A stretch of 57,423 bases of DNA from a virus (Duplodnaviria; Caudoviricetes). The stretch covers positions 1 to 57,423 of the IMG/VR virus record IMGVR_UViG_3300042561_000852, one strand, 5' to 3'. This document shows positions 14,501 through 25,437 of this stretch, piece by piece. Position 1 is the stretch's first letter. The number at the start of each line of letters is the position of its first letter. The position numbers and the translations under genes were made by a program. The notes beneath the pieces were generated by a model, which did not search any database, was not told where the DNA came from, and worked only from the letters and a program-made list of their open reading frames with translations.

Positions 14501-17500
14501 GCAGCGCCGCAACAGCATGTCGAAGCCGATGGCGGCAGCGCTGGCCGAGGCAGAAGCGCGCTACGAGGCCGCAGCCAGCGATGACCCGCTGCTGTTCGCG
14601 AAGGAGCTGCTTGCGGTCATGGCCGAGACGGGCACGCGGGCGACGTGGATGGATCGCATGCTCTCGCAGCTGCGCGCCTTCCTGCGCAAGACTGGTCTGA
14701 TCGGCGATGCCTTCAGTGAGGCCGAGCTGCGCAATGTCCTGTCTGGCGCGTTCCGGCTGGTCGAGCGCGGCGGCAGCCTGACCGCTGGCGCTCCGGTGGC
14801 GGCTGGCGGCATGCAGTCAATCCGGCCCGACGACGTCGCCGCCTACATCCTGCGGATGATGGGCCAGAGCGACGCCGACCTGTTCCGCTACCCGAAGTCG
14901 GACAGCACCAGCTTTGCGAAGGTGGTGAAGGACGTCAGCAAGAACGCGATCGCCGCAGTGAAGCTGGGCGAGGTCGAAGCCAACTTCACCGAGAACCTGG
15001 ACGACATGCTGCCGGCGGTGAAGTGGGGGCTTCGCCTGCCGGACGGCTCGCAGGCCTTCGTCTACATCGAGCAGCCGAGCCCATACACGCCCGACAGCGG
15101 CCTGCGCATGTTCATCGACGCCAGCGCCGGCAACGCAGGCGCGAGCCTGGGCAGCGCCGCCTATGCCGCGCTGTTCCAGTGGGCACTGAACACCGGCCAC
15201 ACCTTCATCGGCGACCCCAACGGGCTGAGCACCGAGGCCCTGCTTCGGCGCACCGAGCACATGCTTTCGGCCGCCCTGAAGCACGGCACCACGCGAATGA
15301 TGGCGCCGCACGCGCGCCAGGTGGACCCCATGGACAAGAAGTGGGGCCCGTCGCAGGATTGGGCGCACCCGCTGGAGTGGACGGACGGCGACGACGTGGC
15401 GAACGTCACGGCGCTGATCCGCACCAGTGTGGAGAATCACCGCGCACTGCTGCAGGGGACCGAGGCCGATGGCGCCGTATATCGTCTTTCCGATGGACAG
15501 TTCATTGGCGCTGGCGGACAGCCTCTCACCGACGAGGGACTGCGACGCGCTGCTGCAACTGCTGGAGCGCGATTCCGAGCGAGTGGCCGCTTTGCCGGTC
15601 CAGAGTCCCGAGCGGCAGCTGTTGGCGGCTCTACGGTGGCGCGCACGCTGGTTCTCGGCTCGCTGCTCGACGGATCGACTGGATCCACGGGACAACGACG
15701 TGAGCTACTGGCTGATCTTGCAGAGCGGCTGTCCGCTCAACGCCTGACCTATGACCGCGCGCGGGGGCTGTTCTACAGCCGGCCGGGCGCATCCCGCCTT
15801 CAGCAAAACATGAGCACCGATCGGTCCGAAGCAATCAGCCAGATCCTCGACGCAATCAAGCGGGATGGCAGGGTCGAAGGCTGGGGGCTCCGGGTTATCG
15901 ACGTGGACCCCGATGTTGGGAGCGATGGCTTCCTGCCGCCAAGCTTCGTGTGGGATAACGGGGATCAGACTGAGGAAACCCTAAATGGAACTTCTGCAGT
16001 CGGCATCCGAGAGCTTTCAGAGTCCGGCATCGATAAGGCGCTGCGCCTCCTTGGTGTCGGCGGAAGCGGTGAAAATGGTTTCTACTTCGGTGATCGCGTC
16101 CTGTTGGTCAACGGCGAACCGAAGGGCTCGGGGGAGGATGCTGGCGAGGTGATCCTTGCGGAGGCCGAGCTGATCGGTCAGTGGAAAAAGTCGGGCAGCG
16201 GCCCCAACGAGATCTTGCCCAATCCGCCTGGCCTTTTCAGCCAGCCCCGCCTCGGCCCCCAGCTTCCGCAGAATCTCGGCCAAGGCCCTGCAGCGTCCGC
16301 CGCCCGCGGCGCGCTGCTCGCTGTCCGCCAGCGCGTCCAGCAGCTCACCAGCCGCGAGACGATCGACCGCCTGCTCTACGAGTTTCAGGACAAGTTCGTC
16401 GACCTGAAGCGCATTCAGGCGCACATCCGAGAGTCCGGCGGCACCGTGTCGGATCTCAATGACGCCTACCTCGGCGAAGAGCTGTATCACTCCCGAGTCA
16501 TGGCGCGGCACGAGCGATTCATGGACTCGGAGCTGAAGCCGCTGCTGGCCGACCTGAACGCGGGCGGCTTTACCATCGAGCAGTTCGAGCAGTTCCTGCA
16601 CGCCCGGCATGCGCCCGAGGCGAACGCGGCGCTCATGAAGCGCAACCCTGACGCCAAGACGGTGCAGGACGAGCGCGATCGCACGGAGCAGGCTGTTCGC
16701 ACACTGCGCGTGCAGCTTCAGCAGGCGCAGAGCGCCGGCACCGCCACGCGCGCGATTGAGCAGGCCTTGGAGCTGGCCGAGCTGGAGCGCGACCGCTGGA
16801 AGCGCACGCAGCCGTTCAAGGGCACTAACACCGAGCGGGCGATGCTGTCGGGCATGTCGGACGCCGACGCGGCCGCGATCATGGCCGCACTGTCGCCGGC
16901 TGATCGCGCCAAGATGGACGCCCTGGCCGCGCGCGTGGATGCGATCAACGCGAAGACGCTCGACCAGCTGGAGCGCTACGGGCTCATGTCGCGCGCCGAC
17001 CTTGACGCCTGGCGCCAGACCTATCAGCACTACGTTCCGCTGCATCGCGACGAGGCCAACCCGGACAGCGTCAGCCATCCGACCGGCTCGGGCTTCAGCG
17101 TCCGCGGCGATGCGGCGAAGTCGCGCACCGGCTCGGCGAAGGCGAAGGTGACCAACATCCTCGCCCACATCGCCATGCAGCGCGAGGCGGCGATCACGCG
17201 CGGCGAGAAGAACGCGGTGGCGAAGCGCCTGTATGTCCTGGCCGGCCAGAACCCGGACCCGGACCTGTGGACGCTGGACAAGGCGCCGACGATCACCCGG
17301 CTGGATCCGGCAACGGGCACCGTGCGATCGATGCCGGACCCGACTTACCGGCAGCAGCCGAATGTGGTCATGGTGCGGATTGCCGGCGAGGACCGCGCCA
17401 TCGTCTTCAGCGAGCGCAACCCGCGCGCGCTGCGGCTGGCCGAGTCTCTGAAGGGCCTCGATGTCGACGACCTGCACGTCGTCTTGGGCTGGTTCTCGAA

Positions 17501-19088
17501 GGCGACGCGCTGGTTCGCCAGTGTCAACACCCAATACAACCCGGTCTTCGGCATCATCAACCTGCTGCGCGACGTGCAGGGCTCTGCGCTGCAGCTGTCG
17601 ACCACACCGCTGAAGGGCCGAGAGCTCCAGGTGGTGCGCCGCATCCCGGCGATGCTGCGCTCGATTTACCGCGAGCGCCGCGGCAAGGGCACGGCCAGCC
17701 CCGATGATGCGCGCCTGCAGCGCCTGTGGGACGACATGCGCATGACCGGCGGCGTCACTGGCTACCGCGACCTGTTCCGTGACCCGATGGAGCGCGCGAA
17801 TGCGATCGAGGCCGAGCTGCGCAAGTCCGAGCGCGGCATGGCCAGCCGCGCCGCGCACGCCGTGGTCGACTGGCTGAGCGACTACAACGAGGCGATCGAG
17901 AACGCGACGCGCCTTGCGGTCTACGAGCAGGGCCTGGCCATCGGCATGACCAAGGAGCGCGCAGCCAGCGTCGCGAAGAACATCACGGTCAACTTCAACC
18001 GGAAGGGCCGTCAGGCGCGCGAGCTGGGCGCCCTGTTCGCCTTCTTCAACGCGGCAGTGCAGGGCACCACGCGCATGGTCGAGACGCTGGCCGGGCCCCG
18101 CGGCCGCGCCATCATGGCCGGCGGCGTTGCGCTGGGCTTCGTGAACAGCCTGATCGGCCTGGCCGTGATGGGCGGCGACGAGTGGGAGAAGATTCCCGAC
18201 CACGTCAAGGAGCGCGCGGTCATCATCCCGATCAGCGGCAGCGACTACATCAGCATCCCGATGCCGCTGGGCTACCACGTCTTCCCGAACATTGGCCGCA
18301 TCGCTGCGGAGTGGATGACCGGCGGCGCGGACAAGTCCATTGCCGGCGGCGCTGCTGAACTGCTGCGGATCGGTGTCGATGCCTTCAACCCGCTCGGCGG
18401 CACGTCGACTCCGCTGCAGATGATCATGCCGACGGCACTGGACCCGATCGCGGCCCTGGCCGAGAACAAGGACTGGACCGGCCGCCCGATCTACCGCGAG
18501 GACTTCAGCAACACTGACCCGACGCCGGGATTCACGCGGGCAAAGGACAGCGCCAGCCTGCCGGCAAAGGTCATGGCGTGGGGCGCCAACGCGCTGAGCG
18601 GCGGCGACGACTATCAGCCCGGCGCCTTCAGCCCGACGCCCGATCAGATCGACTACATCATGGGCCAGCTGACCGGCGGCCTCGGGCGCGAGATCCTGAA
18701 AGCGCAGACCACGCTGGCCGCGCCCTTCAGCGACGACGAGCTGCCGGCGTACAAGATCCCGCTGGTGTCCCGCCTGTACGGCAACACCCGCGGCGAGGCC
18801 GGCGAGAGCCAGCGCTTCTACGAGTCGCTGCGCGAGCTGAACATCATCGAGCGCCGGATCAAGGGCATGGCGCAGGCTGGCGAGGACGTGGATGCCTACA
18901 TGGCGGCCGAGCCCCTGGCGGGTCTGGTCGGCATGGGTACGCGATCGCAGTCGGTGGTGCAGCGCCTGCGCTCCGCCCAGCGTCGAGCCAGTGAGGCCGG
19001 CGACCGCGATCAGGCCGAGGCCATCCGCCTGCAGATCGCCGAAGTGATGGCTGACCTCAACCGCGAAGTGCGCGCAGCCAAGCAATGA
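5541..19088 (+). CDS. Giant DarB-like polyvalent virion protein (4515 aa): SF2/strawberry-notch-type helicase, N6-adenine MTase, ART-PolyVal-like, HExxxH, GNAT-like and LPD38-like domains
   Basis: GTGTGKT 10767-10787, DEAH 11025-11036, SAT; EPSAGHG and NPPF 12807-12818; FRRWFGNSKVVD...VYHGT...QIKSSTGNRGTFD; HEAVGH 14415-14432; C-terminal AKNITVNFNRKG...FFNAAVQG. Confidence 0.9.
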   Translation: MTNPLNPGSIQWDTDVKPAAPAPSAIRWDDDAPADQKTGAGPSWDKPSTSADVTRTWGEAATDTLTGIGQAGLSSISGVVRGINDRAPGAAEAERESGFVAGLLMDVGGKVYEAGLGAQRALGQLAGNPYVINDANRGLQEINARRAASAPEDLKRAKGAEDFAGFLDERAARVPEVQSEKARLIASEMGQLTQAEGLGDQAFATIDYFASPFLRGDLSTGGARVSKIMESLIPSLAAGGIAAKAVGAAGAGAGIQTAAQLGTMSVMEGGGAAEGARGEVLNTPIESLQSAPEFQAALRMTGGDPIRARALLADQAASISFGLGTAAAGATMGLGQVFGANVAEQAVREGVGSLATGAGVRQALLGVAGATGKEFASEFAQGASNQAAQNVGVTATGASDSLGRGVVAAGIMEGIAGAGSGAAAQGAAEVSKRLRPIFDGEDLLGGSNVQTGDPGAAQPGGLNLPDDPAAAPITTAEVVALRDQQLSALQAKANGRPDQTVVDPVTGKPVTVRGEPPQPLSEAERQMLEFLQKYADSPDKLARSLGRRLDDSAAPQAGPAAAPAPAAAPSAAAQQPPAAPAPQPSQAAPQPAAEPEQQPAQGVPTMVTQRMKAQLRERGFTDQQIRAMTPQAAWDAINSGAQAAPQAQAAQQQPAPAPSAPVGTVAAALQPQTADDLLLDRAAAELQGMDETPPIAGPVAIEPQTEEVRNEEVQQVPNVQPAPAEVAGQGLQGQEEVAPAPASAPQTGVVAAALAAQSEPADPDAVEGQLPAESTFAAGRAEDVPTERAPESFIPQVLSEIGWLEKGGRMIRDPSTAIGASSQAEIDPERGDVVGRTKWIGKPSADGRESLFWRMRPDQSLSESEATAAVQKWREGRKLGKRQQAFIDYMQKAARDYAEQWNTERTETLRAIVELEAEGIVEERDELRAAVRPNLSPEDEREALQLDDLLRRAADAGATRDQLLDILTSQPEPQQARTLWHFIKTQERDRGTDQAGPSEAAGLQPEASGRGQAESDRAGEAAPRGAEAEPAAAPAADPRAEGLTLSAPAAPAVSRQAAPPSQQGGLFAPPTRGEVLAGERKRRDDERDGKNATGRTDMMAGDGELFAGPRPEQADVEQAIAAEQVAERPKPWTVSSSEWMTSERAEIDAARASEDAEIPRLRARVEYNRNQLRGRMPKTDRARLEQLVDDDEFRILQLSSRPLDPDGFDITPARHRRIVESAMRRGESIPAEVFAEYPDLAAEAQSAPPSQGEKVEAAPDSPVVPPGVLDAPANQLVSRLNKLVEKREKWNLAHMQKYRDGSATRAQTTTHSARIADLNEQIKELRDAIAAEKSVSPSQGEKVKAARQPLENATAPDAEQESDPVITETQARQEIEWIDMGTQGGVKSLRLRFRGMAYGDLEKSGKGRWIIEGSGESFVGLAEAKRAVADTAIERLIADGYVERAPAVEAARQPSANTIFTEDAAEKARARLRAKLGRPNSGIDPEMLQDGITLAGYHIERGARTFAAYARAMVEDMGDAVRPFLKSWYLGVKFDPRAASIASEMDSAAAVESADANQEFGDVPSSPGDVAGAGQSGPAAASDVAEADAAAGGEAAAGAGQPSGRVGAGAPGARGTRGPAGGAAAGRAGRDQRVPAQQPDGREPAASDAGAADGRGSRGDGGSGVQAERDGARGATEAAARARGDRDKLTQQRAAESIPVRLGDIENIRATLPYLLEGQQDDVAKAEARFAKPDGYGMLFTNGTGTGKTFTGLGIVKRFQRQGKTNVLIVAPSDKIMSDWVKSGIPLGLDITQLASTSDAGRGIVVTTYANLGQNDALAKREWDLIVADEAHYLMRSADGERTAALDALRAITLHPDGYMQRTNMLHRELVDRGRDLSDQAKRARMSDDQRDWFRAKGLEEQASAAFRELDARRKEVQADVMAKQGASRTRAVFLSATPFAYEKTVDWAQGYLFTYPESQGGGYNSPDSFGAFMMSNFGYRMRYGKLTAPEAGVDSGLMQRMFNTRLKREGVLSGRRLDVAADYSRNFVLVESAIGRRIDQALEWLRENDGTREISDKLRESFDYLARRYTLEALKARESVALIREHLALGRKVVVFHDYKKGGARNPFDFDAGSVGPTEAQTIEQFRAEFGDLIEGMRGLISPIDLLQREFPDLLLFNGDVSPKNRRANVDTFNDDSTGPRVILVQTDAGKEGISLHDTTGEHQRALINLGMPTKPTDLIQQEGRIYRTGQVSNAIFSYLNTGTSWERATFAQTIAGRASAAENLGMGEEARALKDSLVQAFEDSAQLRPGYEGEGTGGKAADAAAARMLTEHDRAVSLYYANQKKTQRTKSAEGTDYFATPEPVGLAMVRMADIRPGESALEPSAGHGAIARWFGDTVKKTAVEPSPELASRLALSFDGRIVDGRFESLDLVNKFDAIVMNPPFGTAGRTAVDHVAKAAKHLREGGRIVALIPTGPAADKKFDAWLYEQDDKGRVVHPDLHLVATIELPAVTFERAGTNVRTRIVVVDKLPADVMQLAQQDRDLSSAETIKELFDRVENLEIRARTRPAEPEAETAPAPAPQTERKAKAESRDAARDTAKAAGVAPTGEPIVTHITGKGKELVGVVRTGITKAQAQAIDAYTFAKNGGWFIRVEHLKPAGNFSRPRSAALPAAVVDQTQTPEFRRWFGNSKVVDAEGRPLVVYHGTTFDFEAFKTGKAKKGNELPFGAHFTPSPDIASQFADSESGNVLPVYLSILAPLDLTPEANEFAVVGTPEGMLAEEAIRANKQEPKPYRRWQYQPWTQGTPKGDDLVLPLKAELDVLRGDRGRAIIQKAGYDGAVYSATYYRGPFGSGGRTLDRSYIAFRPEQIKSSTGNRGTFDPADPRIAYSQPMPGDRIPMGPLRSDAAMRFAVAAALDGWAGQKPIVRVVRTAAELPADAKMGEGWQTAEGYFDGADGVWLVTENLADPQRALEVLRHEAVGHFGVERIAGASWPSILAGVESFRGQRRNSMSKPMAAALAEAEARYEAAASDDPLLFAKELLAVMAETGTRATWMDRMLSQLRAFLRKTGLIGDAFSEAELRNVLSGAFRLVERGGSLTAGAPVAAGGMQSIRPDDVAAYILRMMGQSDADLFRYPKSDSTSFAKVVKDVSKNAIAAVKLGEVEANFTENLDDMLPAVKWGLRLPDGSQAFVYIEQPSPYTPDSGLRMFIDASAGNAGASLGSAAYAALFQWALNTGHTFIGDPNGLSTEALLRRTEHMLSAALKHGTTRMMAPHARQVDPMDKKWGPSQDWAHPLEWTDGDDVANVTALIRTSVENHRALLQGTEADGAVYRLSDGQFIGAGGQPLTDEGLRRAAATAGARFRASGRFAGPESRAAAVGGSTVARTLVLGSLLDGSTGSTGQRRELLADLAERLSAQRLTYDRARGLFYSRPGASRLQQNMSTDRSEAISQILDAIKRDGRVEGWGLRVIDVDPDVGSDGFLPPSFVWDNGDQTEETLNGTSAVGIRELSESGIDKALRLLGVGGSGENGFYFGDRVLLVNGEPKGSGEDAGEVILAEAELIGQWKKSGSGPNEILPNPPGLFSQPRLGPQLPQNLGQGPAASAARGALLAVRQRVQQLTSRETIDRLLYEFQDKFVDLKRIQAHIRESGGTVSDLNDAYLGEELYHSRVMARHERFMDSELKPLLADLNAGGFTIEQFEQFLHARHAPEANAALMKRNPDAKTVQDERDRTEQAVRTLRVQLQQAQSAGTATRAIEQALELAELERDRWKRTQPFKGTNTERAMLSGMSDADAAAIMAALSPADRAKMDALAARVDAINAKTLDQLERYGLMSRADLDAWRQTYQHYVPLHRDEANPDSVSHPTGSGFSVRGDAAKSRTGSAKAKVTNILAHIAMQREAAITRGEKNAVAKRLYVLAGQNPDPDLWTLDKAPTITRLDPATGTVRSMPDPTYRQQPNVVMVRIAGEDRAIVFSERNPRALRLAESLKGLDVDDLHVVLGWFSKATRWFASVNTQYNPVFGIINLLRDVQGSALQLSTTPLKGRELQVVRRIPAMLRSIYRERRGKGTASPDDARLQRLWDDMRMTGGVTGYRDLFRDPMERANAIEAELRKSERGMASRAAHAVVDWLSDYNEAIENATRLAVYEQGLAIGMTKERAASVAKNITVNFNRKGRQARELGALFAFFNAAVQGTTRMVETLAGPRGRAIMAGGVALGFVNSLIGLAVMGGDEWEKIPDHVKERAVIIPISGSDYISIPMPLGYHVFPNIGRIAAEWMTGGADKSIAGGAAELLRIGVDAFNPLGGTSTPLQMIMPTALDPIAALAENKDWTGRPIYREDFSNTDPTPGFTRAKDSASLPAKVMAWGANALSGGDDYQPGAFSPTPDQIDYIMGQLTGGLGREILKAQTTLAAPFSDDELPAYKIPLVSRLYGNTRGEAGESQRFYESLRELNIIERRIKGMAQAGEDVDAYMAAEPLAGLVGMGTRSQSVVQRLRSAQRRASEAGDRDQAEAIRLQIAEVMADLNREVRAAKQ
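7669..7752 (+). CDS. Nested +1-frame basic peptide MKKSSKYPMSNPPPPKSQGKGCKGKKK (27 aa)
   Basis: GAGGA SD 7656-7660, 8 nt before ATG; host frame here is acidic linker. Confidence 0.45.
   Translation: MKKSSKYPMSNPPPPKSQGKGCKGKKK
8509..8670 (+). CDS. Nested +1-frame small protein MALTKQDRAKLLDFSLKQAAEGKPSLIEQAKQRH... (53 aa)
   Basis: AGGAG SD 8497-8501, GTG start; host frame switches to A/T-ending codons and low-complexity sequence over this span. Confidence 0.6.
   Translation: MALTKQDRAKLLDFSLKQAAEGKPSLIEQAKQRHAAQKQSQPLPPPPIPAPKG
9285..9903 (+). repeat. In-frame direct repeats (PSQGEKVxAA/VxAARQP) at 9285-9315, 9549-9588 and 9881-9903
   Basis: 31-bp copies with 1 mismatch 264 bp apart; third partial copy 315 bp further. 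Confidence 0.85.
10225..10608 (+). CDS. Nested +1-frame helical protein MYQVPPETWQELASQGRLRHPTWQKL... (127 aa)
   Basis: AGGAG SD 10213-10217; CTG/GAG-rich phage-typical codons; host frame reads as GCT/GGA/CGA-rich Gly-Ala-Arg junk over the same span. Confidence 0.8.
   Translation: MYQVPPETWQELASQGRLRHPTWQKLMPLPVEKLLPALDSLVDEWEQEHPERAVRAALLVAPLLVERAAISAFLRSSPMGESLRPAMPELLTVEEAVAMADQEFRLSATEREALRKLLREHEATATS
15469..15747 (+). CDS. Nested +1-frame protein MAPYIVFPMDSSLALADSL... (92 aa)
   Basis: Host frame shows A/T-ending codons (GCT GCT GCA ACT GCT GGA) while the +1 frame is open and Leu-rich; weak SD. Confidence 0.5.
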   Translation: MAPYIVFPMDSSLALADSLSPTRDCDALLQLLERDSERVAALPVQSPERQLLAALRWRARWFSARCSTDRLDPRDNDVSYWLILQSGCPLNA

Positions 19089-19139
19089 GTGCGCGGCCGG
19101 CGGCGATCATCTTGCCGCCGGCCCAGCACCAGGAGCGGA

Positions 19140-19168
19140 TTACGTCGCGGGCGAGCATGGGGTATGCT
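19140..19168 (+). promoter_or_regulatory. Sigma70-like promoter for the downstream ncRNA
   Basis: TTACGT-N17-TATGCT; predicted start coincides with the 5' end of the RNA closing stem. Confidence 0.55.
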
Positions 19169-19172
19169 CCGG

Positions 19173-19303
19173 ATCGGTGGATGCGTAGGCTGATGCGCTA
19201 CGACGATAAACGCGACAGGGCCAAACCGAGGGCGAAACGTCTCTCCCGCCTGCTGAAATGCAGGCAGCTCCTAGCAAGCCGGAGATCAGCGCCGGCCACC
19301 GAT
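19173..19303 (+). ncRNA. Kissing-loop structured RNA A
   Basis: Closing stem ATCGGTG/CACCGAT; hairpins GCGTA-GGCTGA-TGCGC and GCCGG-AGATCAGCG-CCGGC; GCTGAT/ATCAGC complementary; own promoter and terminator. Confidence 0.8.
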
Positions 19304-19305
19304 AT

Positions 19306-19334
19306 GGCCCTGCCAGCAATGGTGGGGCCTTTTT
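19306..19334 (+). terminator. Rho-independent terminator
   Basis: GGCCCTGCCA-GCAA-TGGTGGGGCC-TTTTT. Confidence 0.85.
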
Positions 19335-20482
19335 CATTCCGGCAGCAGGTAATCGGCCCAGGCCTGCATGAGCTGGCGCCGCTTCTCCAGCAGGTTGCCG
19401 CGGCGATATGCGGCCTCGACCTTGTCGCGGATCGTGTGCGCCAGCGCCATTTCGGCGACTTCGCGCTCGGTCGCGGTCTGCTCGGCCGTCCAGTCGCGGA
19501 AGGTGCTGCGAAACCCGTGCACGGTGTATGGCAGGCCCAGGCCCTTGGGCGGCGGGCGCTGCAGCAGGTAGAGCATCGCGTTCTCGGACAGGGCGAACGG
19601 CGGGCGGCTCCGGGGCAAGATCTCGAGAACTGCGACAGCCTGGCGCGACAGCGGGACGACGTGCTCGCGCGCCGCCTTCATCCTTGCGGCCGGGATCGTC
19701 CACGTCGCCGCCTGCAGGTCAATCTCGGGCCAGTCGGCGCCGGTGACTTCGCCCGTGCGCGCGGCCGTGAGGATCGTCCACGCCAGTGCTCGCCGACTGA
19801 TGCTCTGTCCCGACAGCAGGGCCGCCATGAAGGCCTGGGCGTCTGCGTAGGGCATGGCTGCGTGGTTCTCGACCTTGCGCACTTTCTCTGGTGGCGGCAG
19901 TAGGTGCTGTAGGTGGCCTTTCCAGCGCGCAGGGTTCTCGCCAGCGACCGCGCCGGCGACGCGCTCGGCATCCCAGATGCGTTCGATGCGCGCCCGGATC
20001 CGCGTTGCCGTCTCGGTCTTCCCGGTCCAGATCTTGCGAAGGCATCGCAGGATCAGCGGTGTGTCGATGGCGGATACGGGCAGCTCGAAGTCGGGCCCAT
20101 GGTCGCGCAGCGACTGCAGCCATTGGTCGGCCTGCGCCTCGTTCTTCCAACCGACGGCCTGCGTTGCAATGAACTCTGCGACGGCTTCGCCCCAGCTCCG
20201 CGCAGGCGAGCCCCTGGCGGCCTTGCGCGCCTCGATCGGGTCAATGCCATCGGCTCGAAGCTTGCGCTGCTCAGCGGCGCGCACGCGAGCCTCGGCGAGG
20301 CTGAAGTCCTGCGTGGAGCCGAGCCCCATGTCTCGAAGTCGGCCCAGGTGGCGAAAGCGGAAGATCCAGCTTCGCGCGCCGGTAGGCTTCACCAGCAGGT
20401 ACAGGCCGCCGCCGTCAGAGTGCAGGCCGGGCCCGAGATTCTGGACGGACTTGGCCGTCAGCTTGTGTAGCGCCCGCCCCAT
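19334..20482 (-). CDS. int: Tyrosine integrase, P4/IntA-like with arm-binding domain
   Basis: DGGGLYLLV...WIFRF N-domain; TAARTGE, RMK, VHGFRSTF, LAH, AY catalytic motifs. Confidence 0.95.
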   Translation of the reverse strand: MGRALHKLTAKSVQNLGPGLHSDGGGLYLLVKPTGARSWIFRFRHLGRLRDMGLGSTQDFSLAEARVRAAEQRKLRADGIDPIEARKAARGSPARSWGEAVAEFIATQAVGWKNEAQADQWLQSLRDHGPDFELPVSAIDTPLILRCLRKIWTGKTETATRIRARIERIWDAERVAGAVAGENPARWKGHLQHLLPPPEKVRKVENHAAMPYADAQAFMAALLSGQSISRRALAWTILTAARTGEVTGADWPEIDLQAATWTIPAARMKAAREHVVPLSRQAVAVLEILPRSRPPFALSENAMLYLLQRPPPKGLGLPYTVHGFRSTFRDWTAEQTATEREVAEMALAHTIRDKVEAAYRRGNLLEKRRQLMQAWADYLLPE

Positions 20483-20692
20483 ACTTCGCCCCAAACTCCG
20501 GAGCGAGACAGCATGCGACTAAATGAGACTGAATGCGACAGCTACCCGCGCTGCTGCTGGCTTGCGTGGACTGCATGAGACCACATGCGACAGTCTCGCC
20601 GGACTCCTTCTCCGCCATACAAACGCCGAAGGCCCTGAGAAATCAGGGCCTTTCGCGTTCTTGGGCCTGACGTCCCACACCCTGTCCCATAC
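20476..20692. other. attP: core CTCCTTCTCCGCCA (20604-20617, tRNA-Ser-like 3' end), paired arm sites and 10-bp-period repeats
   Basis: Arm pairs GCCCCATAC/GCCCCAAAC (20476, 20488) and GTCCCACAC/GTCCCATAC (20672, 20684); ATG(C/A)GAC at 20513, 20523, 20533, 20575, 20585; core ends in CCA and is followed by a hairpin. Confidence 0.75.
20629..20654. terminator. Terminator hairpin after the att core
   Basis: AAGGCCCTGA-GAAA-TCAGGGCCTT. Confidence 0.7.
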
Positions 20693-22524: not shown

Positions 22525-22723
22525 CTATTCTGACTCAAATCGGGTTTCGCAGACATTGCATTCGTACAAATTGGGGGATTTCCTATCGGGCTTGTGGAAT
22601 ACGTTGCATCCGCAATTGCACCGAAATGGTTTCCCCCCCTACGCGGACTGTGAAGTTTTCAACATCCCCGGAAGTGGTGCGAACTGCGTTTGCGTAACGG
22701 TCATGGACAGGCAGACAATTCAT
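22525..22723 (-). pseudogene. Zinc-ribbon protein gene frameshifted at a G7 run (22633-22639)
   Basis: Removing one G gives a 65-aa ORF MNCLPVH...VGGKPFRCNCGCNVFHKP...YECNVCETRFESE that exactly fills the gap between neighbours. Confidence 0.7.
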
Positions 22724-23007
22724 TCTGGCGCGCTCCCGTAGACCTTGGCGATGGCGGTGTCCACTTTGCGCCAGAAAATGTTAGGCCCGCCGTGGGTTTC
22801 TTCGTCGATCATTTCCAACGCCTCCAAACACTCCAGCGCCCCGCATTCGGTGAGGGCGGCTTGGGCTGCAAGAATCAGATTTTCGCTCTCGTTGGCCCAC
22901 AGCTCGCTGTCTGACTCTCGCATCTGCCGTGCGACTTCTCTGCACAGTCCGCGCGCCGCCTTCATCACCATCGGGTGGGCCGGGCCGCGGTCGTTTGTCG
23001 TGGTCAT
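22720..23007 (-). CDS. Hypothetical protein (95 aa)
   Basis: AGGAG SD before ATG 23007. Confidence 0.7.
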   Translation of the reverse strand: MTTTNDRGPAHPMVMKAARGLCREVARQMRESDSELWANESENLILAAQAALTECGALECLEALEMIDEETHGGPNIFWRKVDTAIAKVYGSAPE

Positions 23008-23027
23008 TCGTGTCTCCTGTTGATTTG

Positions 23028-23136
23028 CGAGGGTGGCCGGGTGCGAGTCCGGCATGGCGGTGAACAGGCAGTTGCCCCACATAACGTTGCCGCCGCGTGT
23101 CCTCTTAGCGGGTCGCCCCCGCGTGCAACACCCTCG
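23028..23136 (-). ncRNA. Kissing-loop structured RNA C
   Basis: Closing stem CGAGGGTG/CACCCTCG; hairpins GCGGG-GGCGA-CCCGC and GCCGG-ACTCGCAC-CCGGC; GCGA/TCGC complementary. Confidence 0.65.
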
Positions 23137-23372
23137 GGCCTGAACCCTGTCGCCAAGGCGCAGGCCGGAGAGTGCCGCAAGGTGAATCGGAGTGCAGGCG
23201 GGTCCAGGGCGTCCCCCGTACAGCGCCGCGCGTGTGGTGTCGAACCCGGCATCTGCGGGGAGAGAGCAGGCCAGAGCCCACGCCCACCTGTGTGCATCCC
23301 CGTCAGTTGATCAGCCCGCTTCCACGCTGTTCCGCCCGCACTCCGATTGACCCTGCCATGTGCCGCGCCGGG

Positions 23373-23564
23373 CTAGGGCGCGGCGGCGCTCTTCCGCTTC
23401 TTCCGCTTCACCGCTGCGGCCGCATTGATGGCGAGACGCGCCAGGGCAACCCACCGCTTCGACCTCGGGTTTTCGTCGCTCATGATGCAAGCGCCCGAAT
23501 ATGCCCAGCCCTCGGCATTCATGATTGCCAAAGCTGCCGCCTCGACTTCCGCTCTCGTTGCCAT
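23373..23564 (-). CDS. Small basic-tailed hypothetical protein (63 aa)
   Basis: GGAGG SD; MATRAEVEAAALAIMNAEG... Confidence 0.6.
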   Translation of the reverse strand: MATRAEVEAAALAIMNAEGWAYSGACIMSDENPRSKRWVALARLAINAAAAVKRKKRKSAAAP

Positions 23565-23608
23565 ACCGCCCTCCATCGTGAGTAGGCGCCCCGTAGGGCG
23601 TGTGTGTC

Positions 23609-23774
23609 GCTGTCTTGGGTCTGGGCACTTGCGTCGCATCAGCCGTTCGGTGTCACGGACGATATGCGCAGCGCCGGTCTATTCGCGATTAACCGCCCAC
23701 CAGCAGGATTTCTATCCCTGCCCTTCTTCGTCTGCGGGACAAGCCCGCCGCCAAGTGCCCAGACCGAAAACAGC
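23609..23774 (-). ncRNA. Structured RNA E with a long closing stem
   Basis: Perfect 14-bp GGTCTGGGCACTTG/CAAGTGCCCAGACC extended to about 22 bp; inner hairpins GCGGG-CTTGT-CCCGC and CCGT-GACACCGA-ACGG. Confidence 0.65.
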
Positions 23775-23793
23775 GCCCCGGTGTCGTCGGGGC

Positions 23794-23962
23794 GGTTGCC
23801 GTGTACGTCTCCGGCGCGGGGCTCTCACCGCCGTGGTGCCTTGGCCTGCATGCAGGGCGCAATTCCCGTCTGTGCCTTTACGTCGAACTGTTCAGCACGG
23901 GCTTCCCGACGTTGCCCGCCTTTCACGGCGGCGGGCTGCCGTCTTCGCTCACCTTCCCAACC
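23794..23962 (-). ncRNA. Structured RNA D (larger kissing-loop variant)
   Basis: GGTT/AACC closure; GGC-AACGTCGGGAA-GCC and GCCG-GAGACGTACA-CGGC with ACGTC/GACGT; T-loop-like GCGG-TGAGAGCC-CCGC and GTGAAA-loop hairpins. Confidence 0.55.
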
Positions 23963-23965
23963 AAA

Positions 23966-24032
23966 CCGGAGCGCGGGAAGCTACGCAACCTTGGTTTCGT
24001 CCCTCCGGACTCTTCAGGCGTAGATGCTCCGG
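23966..24032 (-). ncRNA. Type I hammerhead ribozyme
   Basis: CUACGC-CUGAAGA-GUCC(GGAG)GGAC-GAAA-C(CAAG)G-UU/GCGUAG; complete core; stem I extended by CCGGAGC/GCUCCGG. Confidence 0.8.
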
Positions 24033-24097
24033 CCCGCCCTGCTACTTGCGAAGAATTGCAGGGGTATGCAAGTGCCGGCGCATCCCCGCCGGCTGGG

Positions 24098-24237
24098 GTG
24101 GTGGCCGGAGGCGAGCCCGGCTGTCTGGTGTATCCGTTACGGCCCTCTTGGAATCACAGGCACTGAGTCCTGCCGGGTATGGTCATCACCCACTATTGCC
24201 AGCACCTATCGGCGCATCGCCACTGCGCTATCACCAC
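24098..24237 (-). ncRNA. Kissing-loop structured RNA B
   Basis: Closing stem GTGGTG/CACCAC; hairpins GCGCA-GTGGCGA-TGCGC and GCCGG-GCTCGCCT-CCGGC; GGCGA/TCGCC complementary. Confidence 0.75.
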
Positions 24238-24265
24238 TGCCGCGACTCCCGCGGCGCTACGGCGG

Positions 24266-24604
24266 TCAGTCCGCCGCTTTCTCCAACTCCGTGCATTCGA
24301 ACGACATCAGCGTCTGCGGCTTCGGCAGCAGGCTTCGGCGCACGGCGACCAGCAGGCACGACGGCATCGCCTGGCCGGGTTGCAGCTGCACGATGTAGTC
24401 ACCAGTTGCGACGTCGCCGGGTGCGGGTCTGGCCCTGATCTCCAGCGTTGAGCAAGAGCCCACCAGCACCCCGCCGGACATCCCGACCAGGTACTGCGGA
24501 TTGCAGGCCTCCGCGACGATGACGCGCGTCTCGGTCAGGATCTCGATGCGATGCTCGCCAGCCGGCTCGAAGCTGGTCGCGAAGATCAGGGCCAGGGCGA
24601 TCAC
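24266..24604 (-). CDS. Small exported hypothetical protein
   Basis: Hydrophobic N-terminus, 4 Cys, GTGA overlap with the upstream gene. Confidence 0.6.
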   Translation of the reverse strand: MIALALIFATSFEPAGEHRIEILTETRVIVAEACNPQYLVGMSGGVLVGSCSTLEIRARPAPGDVATGDYIVQLQPGQAMPSCLLVAVRRSLLPKPQTLMSFECTELEKAAD

Positions 24605-25437
24605 GGCCGGAAGTTCCCGCGGTAGATCTTGGCGCTGGCGCAGCCCGCGATAGTCAGACCGTCGCGCACGAGCGACACAAACTCCGTCGCGATTCGCTCC
24701 TGTGCGTCAGCCATCGCGACCACTCGCAGCACCAGCTTCGGCGGGTCGGTCATGGTGACGCTGAGGCGCAGGCGGAAAGCGACGGGCTCGAAACAGTCGA
24801 AGGGCTGGGCGGTGAAGATGAAGCCGCTCGGCAGCTGCAGTGCTTCCTGCTTCGCTCGGGCCTCGATCTGCTCTATTGCCGTGCGACTAGCCCCGAAATC
24901 GCTGTCTTCGTGCGTCTTCGTGCTGCCGGCCTTGATTTCGATGCTGCGCACCGCCTGGATGGCAACGCCCAAGTTCGGCCGGACCTCGTCGCCATAGAAC
25001 GGCTGTGCGCAGTCGCTCCAGTCTTCCAGCCACTCAGCCAGCTGGCGCTGATTGAACTGCTTTCCGTCCAGTGCGAGCAGCGCGCGGTAGGCGCTGGTCG
25101 GCTGCAGGGTCAGGTGCGCACGGTCGTCGCCGTGGCCCGGATTGTGCTCGTCGCCGAGATTGAAGAAGGCCTCGGCCTTGCCGTTCTGGGCGTCGATGAA
25201 CACGACAGGCGTGTGCAGGCGGCTCGCGGAGTAGCTGGTCAGGTCGGCGATGCTGCTGGTGGAGTAATTGCCGCGGTAGCGAGCGCGGCCCTCCTGCAGG
25301 TGCTCGATGTTCTCGATCGTCACGCCATCGCTGCCGGCGATCAGAAGCGCAGGGGTGTGGGTGTCCAGCGTCGTCGGCTGCACGGTGCGCTGGATCAGCG
25401 TCTGCAGCGACTGGATGGCCTCGTGTGTGAGTTCCAT
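24601..25437 (-). CDS. DUF2303/YfdQ family protein
   Basis: RARYRG...FNLG...PGHGD...QRQLAEWLEDW signature. Confidence 0.85.
   Translation of the reverse strand: MELTHEAIQSLQTLIQRTVQPTTLDTHTPALLIAGSDGVTIENIEHLQEGRARYRGNYSTSSIADLTSYSASRLHTPVVFIDAQNGKAEAFFNLGDEHNPGHGDDRAHLTLQPTSAYRALLALDGKQFNQRQLAEWLEDWSDCAQPFYGDEVRPNLGVAIQAVRSIEIKAGSTKTHEDSDFGASRTAIEQIEARAKQEALQLPSGFIFTAQPFDCFEPVAFRLRLSVTMTDPPKLVLRVVAMADAQERIATEFVSLVRDGLTIAGCASAKIYRGNFRP

What the first reader, a model, noticed from the sequence alone, without database searches (positions are those of the whole stretch)
23028..24237. Non-coding RNA operon: array of kissing-loop scaffold RNAs with variable cargo plus a ribozyme
Seen: about 1.2 kb of the early leftward operon holds only one credible small ORF. 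It has four closed-stem RNAs (B 24237-24098, D 23962-23794, E 23774-23609, C 23136-23028) and a hammerhead. A, B and C share the plan: closing stem ending GGTG; GCG hairpin; variable 55-90 nt insert; GCCGG hairpin; CACC. Their loop-loop pairs covary (GCTGAT/ATCAGC, GGCGA/TCGCC, GCGA/TCGC; ACGTC/GACGT in D). Inference: a stable tRNA-like chassis presenting interchangeable inserts, cut from the early transcript. Possible roles are antisense/guide RNAs, protein decoys (e.g. against anticodon nucleases, CRISPR or toxin-antitoxin defences) or antitermination elements. Upstream YfdP/YfdQ-like proteins are possible partners, by proximity only.
Basis: partly seen in the sequence, partly recalled or inferred. 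Interest (0 to 1): 0.9.

Follow-up and report, generated by a model that had tools for sequence, protein, structure and literature searches.

The report
Phage tRNA-shaped kissing-loop scaffold RNAs
This stretch of a lake-water phage genome carries copies of a very widespread but apparently uncatalogued phage RNA that is shaped like a tRNA, holds its two side loops together by base pairing and carries a swappable insert, next to a hammerhead-type self-cutting RNA.

Summary
Elements B (24238-24097, -) and C (23135-23029, -), with A (19173-19303, + strand, outside the given range), belong to one RNA family. It has a 6-10 bp closing stem, a 3-nt linker, a 5-bp hairpin, a variable 19-162 nt insert, and a second 5-bp hairpin that abuts the 3' strand. 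The two hairpin loops are complementary. My covariance model finds only these three copies in the window. It finds the family in IMG/VR contigs, 142 cultured-phage records and over 120 bacterial species. Rfam 15 has no match. All stems and the loop-loop helix covary (96.8-97.6% of cells paired; 0 of 500 shuffles reach this). When tRNA genes are near, they are always on the same strand. One insert recurs, letter for letter, in the anticodon-arm position of a canonical tRNA-frame gene. The hammerhead has a complete core but a truncated stem III and scores 33.0 bits against a cut-off of 34. D is not supported as drawn. E and an unlisted element F are very stable long-stem structures, and E keeps its stem but swaps its interior in relatives. 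No ORF across the region hits a protein family. Function is unknown. My best reading is a tRNA-like carrier or mimic.

The parts
24097..24238 (-). Chassis copy B. Closing stem GUGGUG/CACCAC, hairpin 1 GCGCA-GUGGCGA-UGCGC, 90-nt insert, hairpin 2 GCCGG-GCUCGCCU-CCGGC. Loop-loop pair GGCGA/UCGCC.
   Evidence: R1 37.5 bits, E 4.3e-8; anatomy. Lies 28 nt after the stop of the 112-aa ORF 24604-24266.
23981..24023 (-). Type I hammerhead. Stem I CUACGC/GCGUAG, core CUGAAGA...GAAA, stem II GUCC-GGAG-GGAC, very short stem III. Predicted cut between 23987 and 23986.
   Evidence: Rfam RF00163, 33.0 bits against a cut-off of 34, E 7.5e-6. A homologous hammerhead with the same stem I and a 4-bp stem III sits inside a chassis insert in L032.
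23794..23942 (-). Core of element D, a conserved non-coding block. It contains the hairpin GCCCGCC-GCCGUGAAA-GGCGGGC (23936-23914), which recurs in related phages.
   Evidence: About 90% identical to L356, with 1 compensatory pair of 37. The hairpin occurs 3 times in relative L021 and in 7 other viral contigs. Fold z +0.36.
23764..23794 (-). Terminator-like hairpin CGCCCCG-ACGACAC-CGGGGCG followed by CUGUUUUCGG. The U run overlaps the 5' strand of E.
23609..23774 (-). Element E: a stem of about 22 bp that closes a branched interior of about 120 nt.
   Evidence: MFE -80.7 kcal/mol, z -4.48, 0 of 200 shuffles as good. L354, L355 and L360 have the same closing stem and a wholly different interior. 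Not matched by R1.
23373..23564 (-). Small ORF of 63 aa with GGAGG upstream. This is the only plausible coding sequence inside the region.
   Evidence: No Pfam or PHROG hit. Its 5' leader hairpin plus SD also stands before a different gene in L358.
23185..23348 (-). Element F, a further closed-stem structure with a closing stem of about 17 bp.
   Evidence: MFE -87.6 kcal/mol, z -3.75, 0 of 200 shuffles as good. No homolog found.
23029..23135 (-). Chassis copy C. Closing stem GAGGGUG/CACCCUC, hairpin 1 GCGGG-GGCGA-CCCGC, 55-nt insert, hairpin 2 GCCGG-ACUCGCAC-CCGGC. It ends 21 nt before the ATG of the 95-aa ORF 23007-22720.
   Evidence: R1 37.7 bits, E 3.7e-8. 79-83% identical to a copy in 22 Pseudomonas phage records, where in D3 it lies between tRNA-Met and tRNA-Gly.
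19173..19303 (+). Chassis copy A, close to the family consensus. Stem AUCGGUG/CACCGAU, loops GGCUGA/AGAUCAGCG, 79-nt insert.
   Evidence: R1 75.8 bits, E 2.8e-18. Lies 85 nt after the stop of ORF 5541-19088.
19306..19337 (+). Intrinsic terminator directly after A: 10-bp stem, then UUUUUCAUU.
   Evidence: The integrase gene 19334-20494 (-) abuts it.

Best explanation
SHOWN. B and C (with A elsewhere in the genome) are copies of a widespread phage non-coding RNA with the topology of a tRNA cloverleaf.
- An acceptor-like closing stem stacks directly on a 5-bp T-arm-like hairpin.
- A 3-nt linker (AAU in most copies) leads to a 5-bp D-arm-like hairpin.
- The two loops form a 5-6 bp Watson-Crick kissing helix in place of the usual D-loop/T-loop contacts.
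- A variable insert takes the place of the anticodon arm.

INFERRED. The RNA is made as part of longer phage transcripts and folds into a compact, nuclease-resistant body shaped like a tRNA. It is handled by the host like a tRNA: excised or trimmed by tRNA-processing enzymes where its flanks allow. It then acts as a tRNA or tmRNA-acceptor-domain mimic that engages a conserved host factor, while displaying its insert. The near-invariant letters of both hairpins, across phages of alpha-, beta- and gamma-proteobacteria, argue for one conserved partner.

The neighbouring hammerhead, if active, cuts the transcript between B and D. E and F are separate long-stem modules of the same non-coding cassette region.
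For: Family and structure.
- R1 hits only A, B and C in the window.
- R1 gives 97 matches in 100 IMG/VR loci and 96 matches in 100 bacterial loci.
- The HK620 copy matches 142 cultured-phage records.
- Pair counts on A3 (41 distinct rows): 96.8% of cells paired against 82.4% in shuffles, 15 of 22 pairs changed on both sides, 0 of 500 shuffles reach this, and slid controls pair 29-48%.
- The kissing helix was not part of the model. It is 96.1% paired, and 3 of its 5 pairs covary (UA 15/CG 10/GC 3/UG 3/AU 1; UA 19/CG 16).
- Independent bacterial set A4 (94 distinct rows): 97.6% paired against 78.4%, and 16 of 17 pairs covary.
- G-U pairs occur in the stems, which fits RNA of this strand.

tRNA likeness.
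- 17 of 93 distinct viral copies have a tRNA gene within 300 nt, all on the same strand and none opposite. The bacterial set gives 3 of 52.
- In D3 the copy sits between tRNA-Met and tRNA-Gly.
- In ZCKP8 and phiEt88 it sits directly before tRNA genes.
- The HK620 insert sits at 100% identity over 34 nt in a canonical tRNA frame of phage SP-9-14.
- Downstream of a tmRNA-like tag module, different phages carry an ordinary tRNA, a canonical D/T-arm frame on the acceptor UUGUGGUG, or the kissing-loop chassis on that same acceptor.
Against: - No RNA data: no run listed as RNA holds this phage, so neither accumulation nor ends are shown.
- The closing stem is not fixed at 7 bp (6-10 mostly, up to 21). 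RNase P measures 12 bp, so some copies cannot be classical substrates.
- There is no preference for U at -1 and no consistent encoded CCA.
- ARAGORN and Rfam tRNA/tmRNA models do not call any copy.
- There is no G3:U70 pair in the window copies.
- Most copies (74 of 93 viral, 49 of 52 bacterial) have no tRNA gene within 1 kb.
- Many copies sit in leaders or 3' UTRs, which fits a cis role as well.
- B and C do not fold better than shuffles.
- The alignments were fitted to the model, and many rows are related, which inflates shuffle tests.
Confidence: 0.6

Rival explanations
1. Cis-acting punctuation or stability element. The folded body marks boundaries in polycistronic phage mRNA. It is cut at its edges, or it blocks exonucleases and 5'-end-dependent decay, so flanking genes get their own mRNA ends. 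The insert would be a tolerated variable region with no function of its own. The hammerhead does the same job by self-cleavage.
For: - C ends 21 nt before a gene start. In relative L021 two paralogous genes each carry their own chassis at the same distance.
- B starts 28 nt after a stop codon, and A lies 85 nt after a stop with a terminator 2 nt behind it.
- A terminator-like site lies within 150 nt downstream in 25 of 139 copies, against 7.1% of random windows. 13 of these are within 0-11 nt.
- Prophage hammerheads that flank genes have been proposed to process long transcripts (PMC3088659, passages read).
Against: - The hairpins show near-invariant sequence across proteobacterial classes, not only conserved structure. 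That is more than a roadblock needs.
- An identical insert is shared with a true tRNA frame.
- In D3 and ZCKP8 the copy lies between tRNA genes, with no mRNA to protect.
Confidence: 0.2
2. Cis-acting processive antitermination RNA, comparable in role to the put elements of phage HK022. It would fold on the nascent transcript, bind RNA polymerase and let it read through downstream terminators.
For: - In HK620 it lies between the annotated qut site and the late terminator tQ.
- In phiEt88 and D3 it lies after the Q-like gene region.
- In Stx2a_WGPS2 and 10 further loci it lies between the repressor region and the first genes of the leftward operon, 640-1700 nt upstream of YfdQ/DUF2303.
- In the window, B precedes a terminator-like hairpin by about 300 nt.
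- A conserved sequence would fit a conserved partner such as RNA polymerase.
Against: - A is followed at 2 nt by a strong terminator at the end of a convergent unit, where read-through would run antisense into the integrase gene.
- Copies inside tRNA clusters of lytic phages and in CDS-free gaps do not sit in promoter-proximal leaders.
- Insert sharing with a tRNA frame is unexplained.
- What I say about put is recalled. I ran no comparison with put sequences.
Confidence: 0.1
3. DNA-level feature: inverted repeats that mark recombination or attachment sites, or cassette boundaries, with no role as RNA.
For: - A lies where attP is expected, just beyond the 3' end of the integrase gene.
- E keeps its 22-bp inverted repeat while its interior is replaced in relatives.
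- One contig of a related sample skips 23592-23914.
Against: - G-U pairs occur in the stems; they would be A-C mismatches on the other strand.
- The orientation relative to tRNA genes is strictly the same strand (19 of 19 within 1 kb).
- Covariation of a loop-loop helix has no meaning in duplex DNA.
- Most copies are far from integrase genes.
Confidence: 0.04
4. Unrecognised protein-coding sequence spans the region.
For: Long ORFs exist on the + strand (337 aa at 23425-24438; 139, 137, 124, 121 and 111 aa).
Against: - None of them hits Pfam or PHROGs.
- None passes a simple codon-position GC filter that the neighbouring genes pass.
- Arg/Pro/Ala-rich frames of this kind are usual in 66% G+C DNA.
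- The family is conserved as paired stems with variable inserts of 19-162 nt, not as a frame.
Confidence: 0.02

Closest known systems
tRNA (Rfam RF00005) and tRNA-frame small stable RNAs in phage tRNA clusters (T4 rnaC/rnaD, species 1 and 2 RNAs)
   Same: - Four-way junction with an acceptor-like stem that is continuous with a 5-bp T-arm-like hairpin.
- A short linker leads to a D-arm-like hairpin, and the loops touch each other.
- It is co-oriented with and adjacent to phage tRNA genes.
- A long insert stands where the anticodon arm would be. T4 rnaC also combines a T arm with a long insert.
   Different: - No T-loop GUUCRA consensus, no D-loop GG and no anticodon arm.
- The loop contact is a 5-6 bp Watson-Crick helix.
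- The closing stem is 6-10+ bp, and CCA is not consistently encoded.
- It is not called by ARAGORN or the Rfam tRNA model.
- R1 does not match the T4 region (best 5.3 bits), so this is an analogy and not membership.
tRNA-like domain of tmRNA, and 'TLD-only' phage ssrA (mycobacteriophage DS6A)
   Same: - An acceptor/T-arm domain with a large insertion in place of the anticodon arm.
- In several enterobacterial phages the chassis lies 150-300 nt downstream of a tmRNA-like tag module.
- A TLD-only molecule has been reported to inhibit tmRNA, perhaps by titrating SmpB (PMC4131195 and PMC11915505, passages read).
   Different: - No G3:U70 pair, no tmRNA T-loop, and the tag lies outside the closing stem.
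- The window has no tag-like ORF.
- ARAGORN finds no tmRNA in 222 loci.
- Rfam tmRNA hits are weak (11-33 bits against a cut-off of 47-50) and do not cover the chassis.
Hammerhead ribozyme type I (Rfam RF00163) in prophage transcripts
   Same: Complete catalytic core, 4-bp stem II, 6-bp stem I open at both ends, and a location between cassettes of a phage operon, as described for prophage hammerheads (PMC3088659, passages read).
   Different: It scores 1 bit under the curated cut-off, and stem III is reduced to 2-3 pairs. Activity is unknown.
phi29 packaging RNA (pRNA) and other kissing-loop RNAs
   Same: Two hairpin loops of one phage RNA are complementary, and they keep that complementarity through compensatory change.
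   Different: The pRNA loops pair between molecules to build a ring on the portal (recalled, not tested). Here the tRNA-like geometry would allow pairing within one molecule, but pairing between molecules is not excluded. There is no link to packaging genes.
E. coli RydB sRNA (Rfam RF00118)
   Same: An 18-nt hairpin GCCGGAGAUAAGCGCCGG differs by one letter from hairpin 2 and is flanked by a short closing stem.
   Different: It has no hairpin 1 and so no loop-loop pair. The match is weak (17.7 bits against a cut-off of 50) and may be chance.

Membership tests
   A 75.8, C 37.7 and B 37.5 bits (E 2.8e-18 to 4.3e-8). D, E and F do not match; the next window hit scores 13.9 bits. A, B and C were among the 44 training rows, so their match is partly by construction. 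C-type and consensus-type copies from other phages score 74-95 bits.
   B has linker AUA, C has UUGCAC and A has GA or GAU. There are 0 nt between hairpin 2 and the closing strand in all three.
   - Window copies: A GCUGA/UCAGC, B GGCGA/UCGCC, C GCGA/UCGC.
- Other variants in the family: GUCGA/UCGAC, UGCGA/UCGCA, GUUGA/UCAAC, GAUGA/UCAUC.
tRNA | Called by ARAGORN or by the Rfam tRNA model | tested here: not met
   0 tRNA genes in the window, and no Rfam hit at gathering score.
tRNA | Anticodon arm and T-loop/D-loop consensus letters | tested here: not met
   Read directly from the sequences: the loops are GGCUGA-type and AGAUCAGCA-type, and the insert is 55-90 nt.
tRNA | Processing by RNase P and 3' trimming, CCA end, aminoacylation | not testable with these tools
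   No RNA run is listed for this phage. An encoded NCCA follows the stem in only some copies.
Hammerhead ribozyme type I | Core CUGANGA ... GAAA, A15.1-U16.1 pair, and a non-G at position 17 | tested here: met
   The alignment to RF00163 shows CUGAAGA, GAAA, A...U and U17.
Hammerhead ribozyme type I | Reaches the curated Rfam score | tested here: not met
   33.0 bits against 34, and no hit at gathering threshold.
Hammerhead ribozyme type I | Three stable stems around the core | tested here: inconclusive
   Stem I has 6 bp and stem II has 4 bp. Stem III is ACC-AA-GGU, so at most 2 pairs with a 4-nt loop, and two pairs are flagged non-standard. The related L032 copy has a 4-bp stem III.
Hammerhead ribozyme type I | Self-cleavage | not testable with these tools
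   Needs in vitro transcription of about 24040-23960.
tmRNA / tmRNA tRNA-like domain | G3:U70 in the acceptor stem, ACCA end, tmRNA T-loop | tested here: not met
   The window closing stems have no G-U at the third pair and no ACCA. The tails read CCCAGCC for B, GCAAAUC for C and AUGGCCC for A.
tmRNA / tmRNA tRNA-like domain | Tag reading frame | tested here: not met
   There is no AN[DE]...A[AV]-stop frame anywhere in the window. It is present upstream of chassis copies in some enterobacterial phages only.
Processive antitermination RNA (put-like) | Promotes read-through of terminators in cis | not testable with these tools
   Only the position in leaders of other phages was seen.
Protein-coding gene across the region | Match to a protein family, or codon-position bias like the neighbours | tested here: not met
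   No Pfam or PHROG hit for the 7 long non-annotated frames tested, plus the 105-aa frame in Pfam only. None passes the GC3 filter. The large sequence databases were not searched.

The most novel reading that the evidence does not exclude
The kissing-loop chassis may be the acceptor-type domain of a phage system that taps into ribosome rescue.

In many enterobacterial phages it (or a canonical tRNA frame on the same acceptor stem) follows a promoter-driven module that encodes tmRNA-like tags. The tags seen are ANDDVVLMAA, ANEEMYLAVA, ANDNVFLAVA and others, and the module matches 757 phage records. The arrangement 'tag module first, closed tRNA-like domain second' is not a tmRNA gene form I found described.

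Standalone copies such as A, B and C would then be tag-less mimics. They would bind SmpB, EF-Tu or the ribosomal A site and so tune or block host trans-translation (or another tRNA-handling pathway) during infection, with the insert setting specificity.
Probability: 0.18. Interest if true: 0.92.

Novelty: new variant of a known kind. Interest (0 to 1): 0.8.

Why it matters
If the family is truly undescribed, it is one of the most widespread structured RNAs of proteobacterial phages still without a name. It occurs in temperate and lytic phages of Escherichia, Klebsiella, Salmonella, Pseudomonas, Erwinia and Aeromonas, and in prophages of alpha-, beta- and gamma-proteobacteria.

It shows a natural solution to an engineering idea, the tRNA scaffold for carrying foreign RNA. 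It also shows a new way to build a tRNA elbow, with a Watson-Crick loop-loop helix.

Because cultured model phages (HK620, D3) carry it, its function is directly testable.

It also points to unannotated non-coding cassette regions in phage genomes that hold ribozymes, long-stem modules and tmRNA-like tag modules. These regions are currently annotated as 'hypothetical protein' or not annotated at all.

Tried and rejected
- Rfam. There were no hits at gathering score in the window. Permissive scans of 22600-24700, 19050-19400, L021, HK620, ZCKP8 and four other phage loci gave nothing on the chassis except a weak rydB hairpin match.
- Thermodynamic tests alone do not support B, C, D or the hammerhead stretch.
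- A loose structural scan shows that the 'plan' is common by chance in this G+C-rich DNA.
- Flanking-protein route. The DUF2303 protein found no relative in viral contigs by the search for related loci.
- RNA evidence. No RNA holder is listed for this phage. The four runs laid are DNA contigs, nearly identical to the window, and gave no covariation. One contig skips 23592-23914.
- Homologs of D. The metagenome scan with an 18-nt word returned 20 stretches, all with unrelated flanks, so they are chance matches.
- Relative G001 shares only the D hairpin from the B-to-F segment.
- E. coli K-12 chromosome: no R1 hit (stricter filters applied).
- T4 rnaC/rnaD are not family members.
- My crude ORF caller gave unusable figures for gene overlap and flank orientation (63 of 93 'overlaps'; flanks same/same 37, mixed 25, opposite 14). 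I draw nothing from them.
- RNase P signature: there is no U preference at -1 and no fixed stem length.
- Literature. There were no hits for the hairpin words or the tag peptides. Four keyword searches found no description of this RNA. Two more on phage tmRNA led to PMC4131195 and PMC11915505, which list phage tmRNAs found by standard tools only.
- The Pas sRNA preprint (outline and passages) concerns Hfq-type sRNAs, not this element.
- The catalogue of about 10,000 candidate viral structured RNAs (PMC10690425, passages read) may contain this motif.
- Complex prediction, structure prediction, fold search, the large protein searches and the Atlas were not used.
Full report
**What the window is.** The window is a complete IMG/VR virus record (57.4 kb, 66% G+C, 99% complete). 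It carries a P4-type integrase (19334-20494, -) and a 4515-aa ORF. Its terminase is distantly related to those of epsilon15-like phages. DNA runs that hold it are lake-water metagenomes, and none is on record as RNA.

The finding lies on the - strand, downstream of SSB (26446-25979), a DUF2303/YfdQ-family gene (25437-24601) and a 112-aa ORF (24604-24266).

**Anatomy of 24265-23008 (- strand).** In order along the strand:
- chassis B;
- a 74-nt spacer;
- a hammerhead;
- block D;
- a terminator-like hairpin;
- long-stem element E;
- a 63-aa ORF with a GGAGG upstream;
- chassis C;
- after 21 nt, the 95-aa ORF 23007-22720.

None of the long frames across the region on either strand hits Pfam or PHROGs, and none shows the third-position G+C bias of the neighbouring genes.

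**The chassis is a real and very widespread family.** BLAST of the region against cultured phages matched only element C. It hit 22 Pseudomonas phage records at 79-83% identity. In phage D3 the match lies between tRNA-Met and tRNA-Gly, under an annotated 'orf86'. The D3 copy has a different closing stem and a different loop pair from C.

- 104 of 144 word matches had a downstream 5-bp hairpin whose loop holds the complementary word.
- These gave 85 distinct sequences with inserts of 27-162 nt.
- Of 83 distinct copies, 62 had 7 of 7 closing pairs and 10 had 6 of 7.

I aligned 44 copies including A, B and C and built model R1.
- In the window, R1 finds only A (75.8 bits), C (37.7) and B (37.5).
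- It gives 97 matches in 100 viral loci.
- It gives 96 matches in 100 bacterial loci that carry a 19-nt hairpin-1 word.

Those bacterial loci come from Enterobacterales, Pseudomonas, Xanthomonadales, Burkholderiales, Rhizobiales and others, and that scan was also capped. The HK620 copy alone matches 142 cultured-phage records, among them Klebsiella 58, Escherichia 36 and Salmonella 13. Rfam 15 has no family for it.

**Covariation, including the loop-loop helix.** All copies found through the hairpin-1 word share loop 1. I therefore scanned for variants at one loop position (77 loci) and aligned all R1 matches (58 rows, 41 distinct). Loop 2 follows loop 1 in these variants:
- GGCUGA with UCAGC;
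- GGUCGA with UCGAC;
- GUGCGA with UCGCA;
- GGUUGA with UCAAC;
- GUGAUGA with UCAUC;
- in the window, GGCGA with UCGCC (B) and GCGA with UCGC (C).

Pair counts, with the kissing helix written as a pseudoknot:
- 96.8% of cells are paired, against 82.4% in shuffles.
- 15 of 22 pairs changed on both sides.
- 0 of 500 shuffles reach any of the five measures.
- Slid controls pair 29-48%.
- The kissing helix is 96.1% paired, and 3 of its 5 pairs covary.

The bacterial set gives 97.6% against 78.4%, with 16 of 17 pairs covarying.

Caveats:
- The rows are related.
- The alignments were fitted to the nested structure.
- Hairpin 1 was fixed by the way the copies were found.
- The kissing helix, however, was not in the model.

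Hairpin 2 was not selected for, yet it is nearly invariant in sequence. That points to a sequence-specific partner.

**Why tRNA-like.**
- Topology. The closing stem runs straight into hairpin 2, as the acceptor stem runs into the T arm. A short linker leads to hairpin 1, as to a D arm. The insert stands where the anticodon arm would be.
- Context. 17 of 93 distinct viral copies have a tRNA gene within 300 nt and 2 more within 1 kb. All 19 are on the same strand. Examples are D3, ZCKP8, phiEt88 and IME11.
- Cargo exchange. 34 nt of the HK620 insert occur at 100% identity in Salmonella phage SP-9-14. There they lie between an ordinary D arm and an ordinary T arm of an 86-nt gene annotated tRNA-Pro. 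ARAGORN reads this gene as a tRNA with an undefined anticodon.
- Slot sharing. This is described in the paragraph on tag modules near the end of this report.

Against a strict tRNA reading:
- The closing stem is 6-10 bp in most copies and reaches 21 bp.
- The 3' flank is C/A-rich, with NCCA in only some copies.
- No tRNA or tmRNA finder calls any copy.

**Other contexts.**
- In HK620 the copy lies between the annotated qut site and the late terminator.
- In an Stx2-converting prophage and 10 further loci it lies 640-1700 nt upstream of a YfdQ/DUF2303 gene on the same strand. These 11 loci look orthologous.
- A terminator-like site follows within 150 nt in 25 of 139 copies, against 7.1% of random windows. 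13 of these are within 0-11 nt, as for A.

These positions keep the cis-acting rivals (punctuation or stability; antitermination) alive.

**Hammerhead.** Rfam Hammerhead_1 aligns 24023-23981 at 33.0 bits (cut-off 34, E 7.5e-6).
- The core letters are all present.
- Stem II is GUCC/GGAC and stem I is CUACGC/GCGUAG.
- Stem III is cut down to ACC-AA-GGU.

In viral contig L032 a hammerhead with the same stem I and a 4-bp stem III sits inside a chassis insert. So ribozyme and chassis do travel together. Perreault et al. 2011 (PMC3088659, passages read) describe prophage hammerheads that flank genes and cleave in vitro. Whether this truncated copy cleaves is open.

**D, E and F.**
- D as drawn is not supported (z +0.36). 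Its core is about 90% identical to one other contig, L356, where a chassis copy follows it. There is 1 compensatory pair among 37 predicted pairs.
- The 23-nt hairpin inside D recurs 3 times in the 64-kb relative L021/G001 and in 7 other contigs. In three of these it is followed by a U run and the E stem, so there it acts as a terminator stem.
- E is exceptionally stable (z -4.48). In L354, L355 and L360 it keeps its 22-bp stem while the interior of about 115 nt is wholly different. It is a second 'same frame, other content' module, although recombination between inverted repeats would look the same.
- F is comparably stable (z -3.75) and has no homolog in hand.
- One contig from a related sample replaces 23592-23914 with 16 other letters.

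The B-to-F segment is therefore an accessory, cassette-like non-coding region.

**tmRNA-like tag modules (seen in passing, partly followed).** Upstream of the chassis, HK620, ZCKP8, IME11 and Magnus carry a conserved module that gives weak Rfam tmRNA hits (11-33 bits). The module encodes short frames that start at GCA AAC GA and end in two stops or one. The tags seen are ANEEMYLAVA, ANDDVVLMAA, ANDDVILMAA, ANEERFLMAA, ANDSEVLMAA, ANDNVFLAVA and ANDNEMRAVA.

The IME11 module matches 757 phage records, almost all unannotated at that place.

In the 12 loci I read, the element downstream of the module is:
- the chassis in 5 (L143 and L144 at 83.8 bits, L351 at 74.3, L350 at 53.9, L384 at 24.5);
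- a canonical D/T-arm frame on the same acceptor strand UUGUGGUG in 2 (L382, L383);
- an ordinary tRNA-Arg in 1 (L387);
- a tRNA-like domain with a G-U third pair and ACCA in FelixO1 (L381);
- stretches with T-arm-like words in 2 (L386, L388);
- no such domain that I could see in 1 (L385).

ARAGORN calls none of these as tmRNA. The two tmRNA census papers I read in passages list phage tmRNAs found by standard tools only. The window itself has no tag-like frame. This observation therefore bears on what the chassis may be for, not on what is in the window.

**Verdict.** D and the single-operon picture are not supported. Function is unknown.

My odds:
- about 0.6 for a tRNA-like carrier or mimic that acts through a conserved host factor;
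- about 0.2 for a cis processing or stability mark;
- about 0.1 for a cis antitermination RNA;
- the remainder for DNA-level or coding explanations.

I found no description of the family in Rfam 15 or in eight literature searches. It may still be hidden in large unnamed catalogues.

Noticed in passing
L351:975-1135 (Escherichia phage IME11), L143:~1200-1430 (HK620), L144, L350, L381-L388: A conserved, promoter-preceded, unannotated module carries a tmRNA-like resume context and tag frames (ANDDVVLMAA**, ANEEMYLAVA*, ANDNVFLAVA** and others). It matches 757 cultured-phage records, including FelixO1-like, Vi1-like, N4-like, T1/Jersey-like and P22-like phages. A closed tRNA-like domain follows it instead of enclosing the tag. 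ARAGORN does not call it, and Rfam tmRNA models score 11-33 bits.
   Followed up: partly
L222:678-766 (Salmonella phage SP-9-14, annotated tRNA-Pro): A canonical tRNA frame carries a 22-nt loop on a 5-bp stem where the anticodon arm should be. The loop is identical to the insert of the HK620 chassis. ARAGORN reports an undefined anticodon.
   Followed up: partly
   Followed up: partly
window 23914-23936 (-); L021 three copies; L354-L360: The 23-nt hairpin GCCCGCC-GCCGUGAAA-GGCGGGC is a mobile module. It stands before genes, before a chassis, or (with a U run) as a terminator stem in front of the E stem.
   Followed up: partly
window 24024-24097 (-): The spacer between B and the hammerhead holds a GC hairpin (GCCGGCG...CGCCGGC). 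It also holds two interleaved complementary pairs (CUUGC/GCAAG and CCCUGC/GCAGGG) that could form an H-type pseudoknot. This may be chance.
   Followed up: no
L223:1214-1281 (E. coli K-12 rydB): The RydB sRNA contains a hairpin that differs by one letter from hairpin 2 of the chassis, inside a short closing stem. It could be a decayed relative or a coincidence.
   Followed up: partly
L381:1247-1639 (FelixO1) and L381:274-759: HNH endonuclease genes are annotated directly against, or overlapping, tRNA and tRNA-like genes of the FelixO1 cluster. The ORF45 start overlaps the T arm of the tRNA-like domain.
   Followed up: no
L351:173-2257 (IME11) and L386 (phage SJ3, whole 1.5-kb stretch): These are CDS-free gaps of 1.5-2 kb in lytic phage genomes. 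They hold the tag module, the chassis or T-arm-like words, and tRNA genes. They are non-coding RNA arrays comparable to the one in the window.
   Followed up: partly
window 5541-19088 (+): A single ORF of 4515 aa takes up about a quarter of the genome. It ends 85 nt before chassis A.
   Followed up: no
window 23592-23914: One contig of a related lake sample lacks this 323-nt stretch (E plus most of D) and has 16 other letters there. Depth is 4.2, and 27 letters lie on the shorter side.
   Followed up: no
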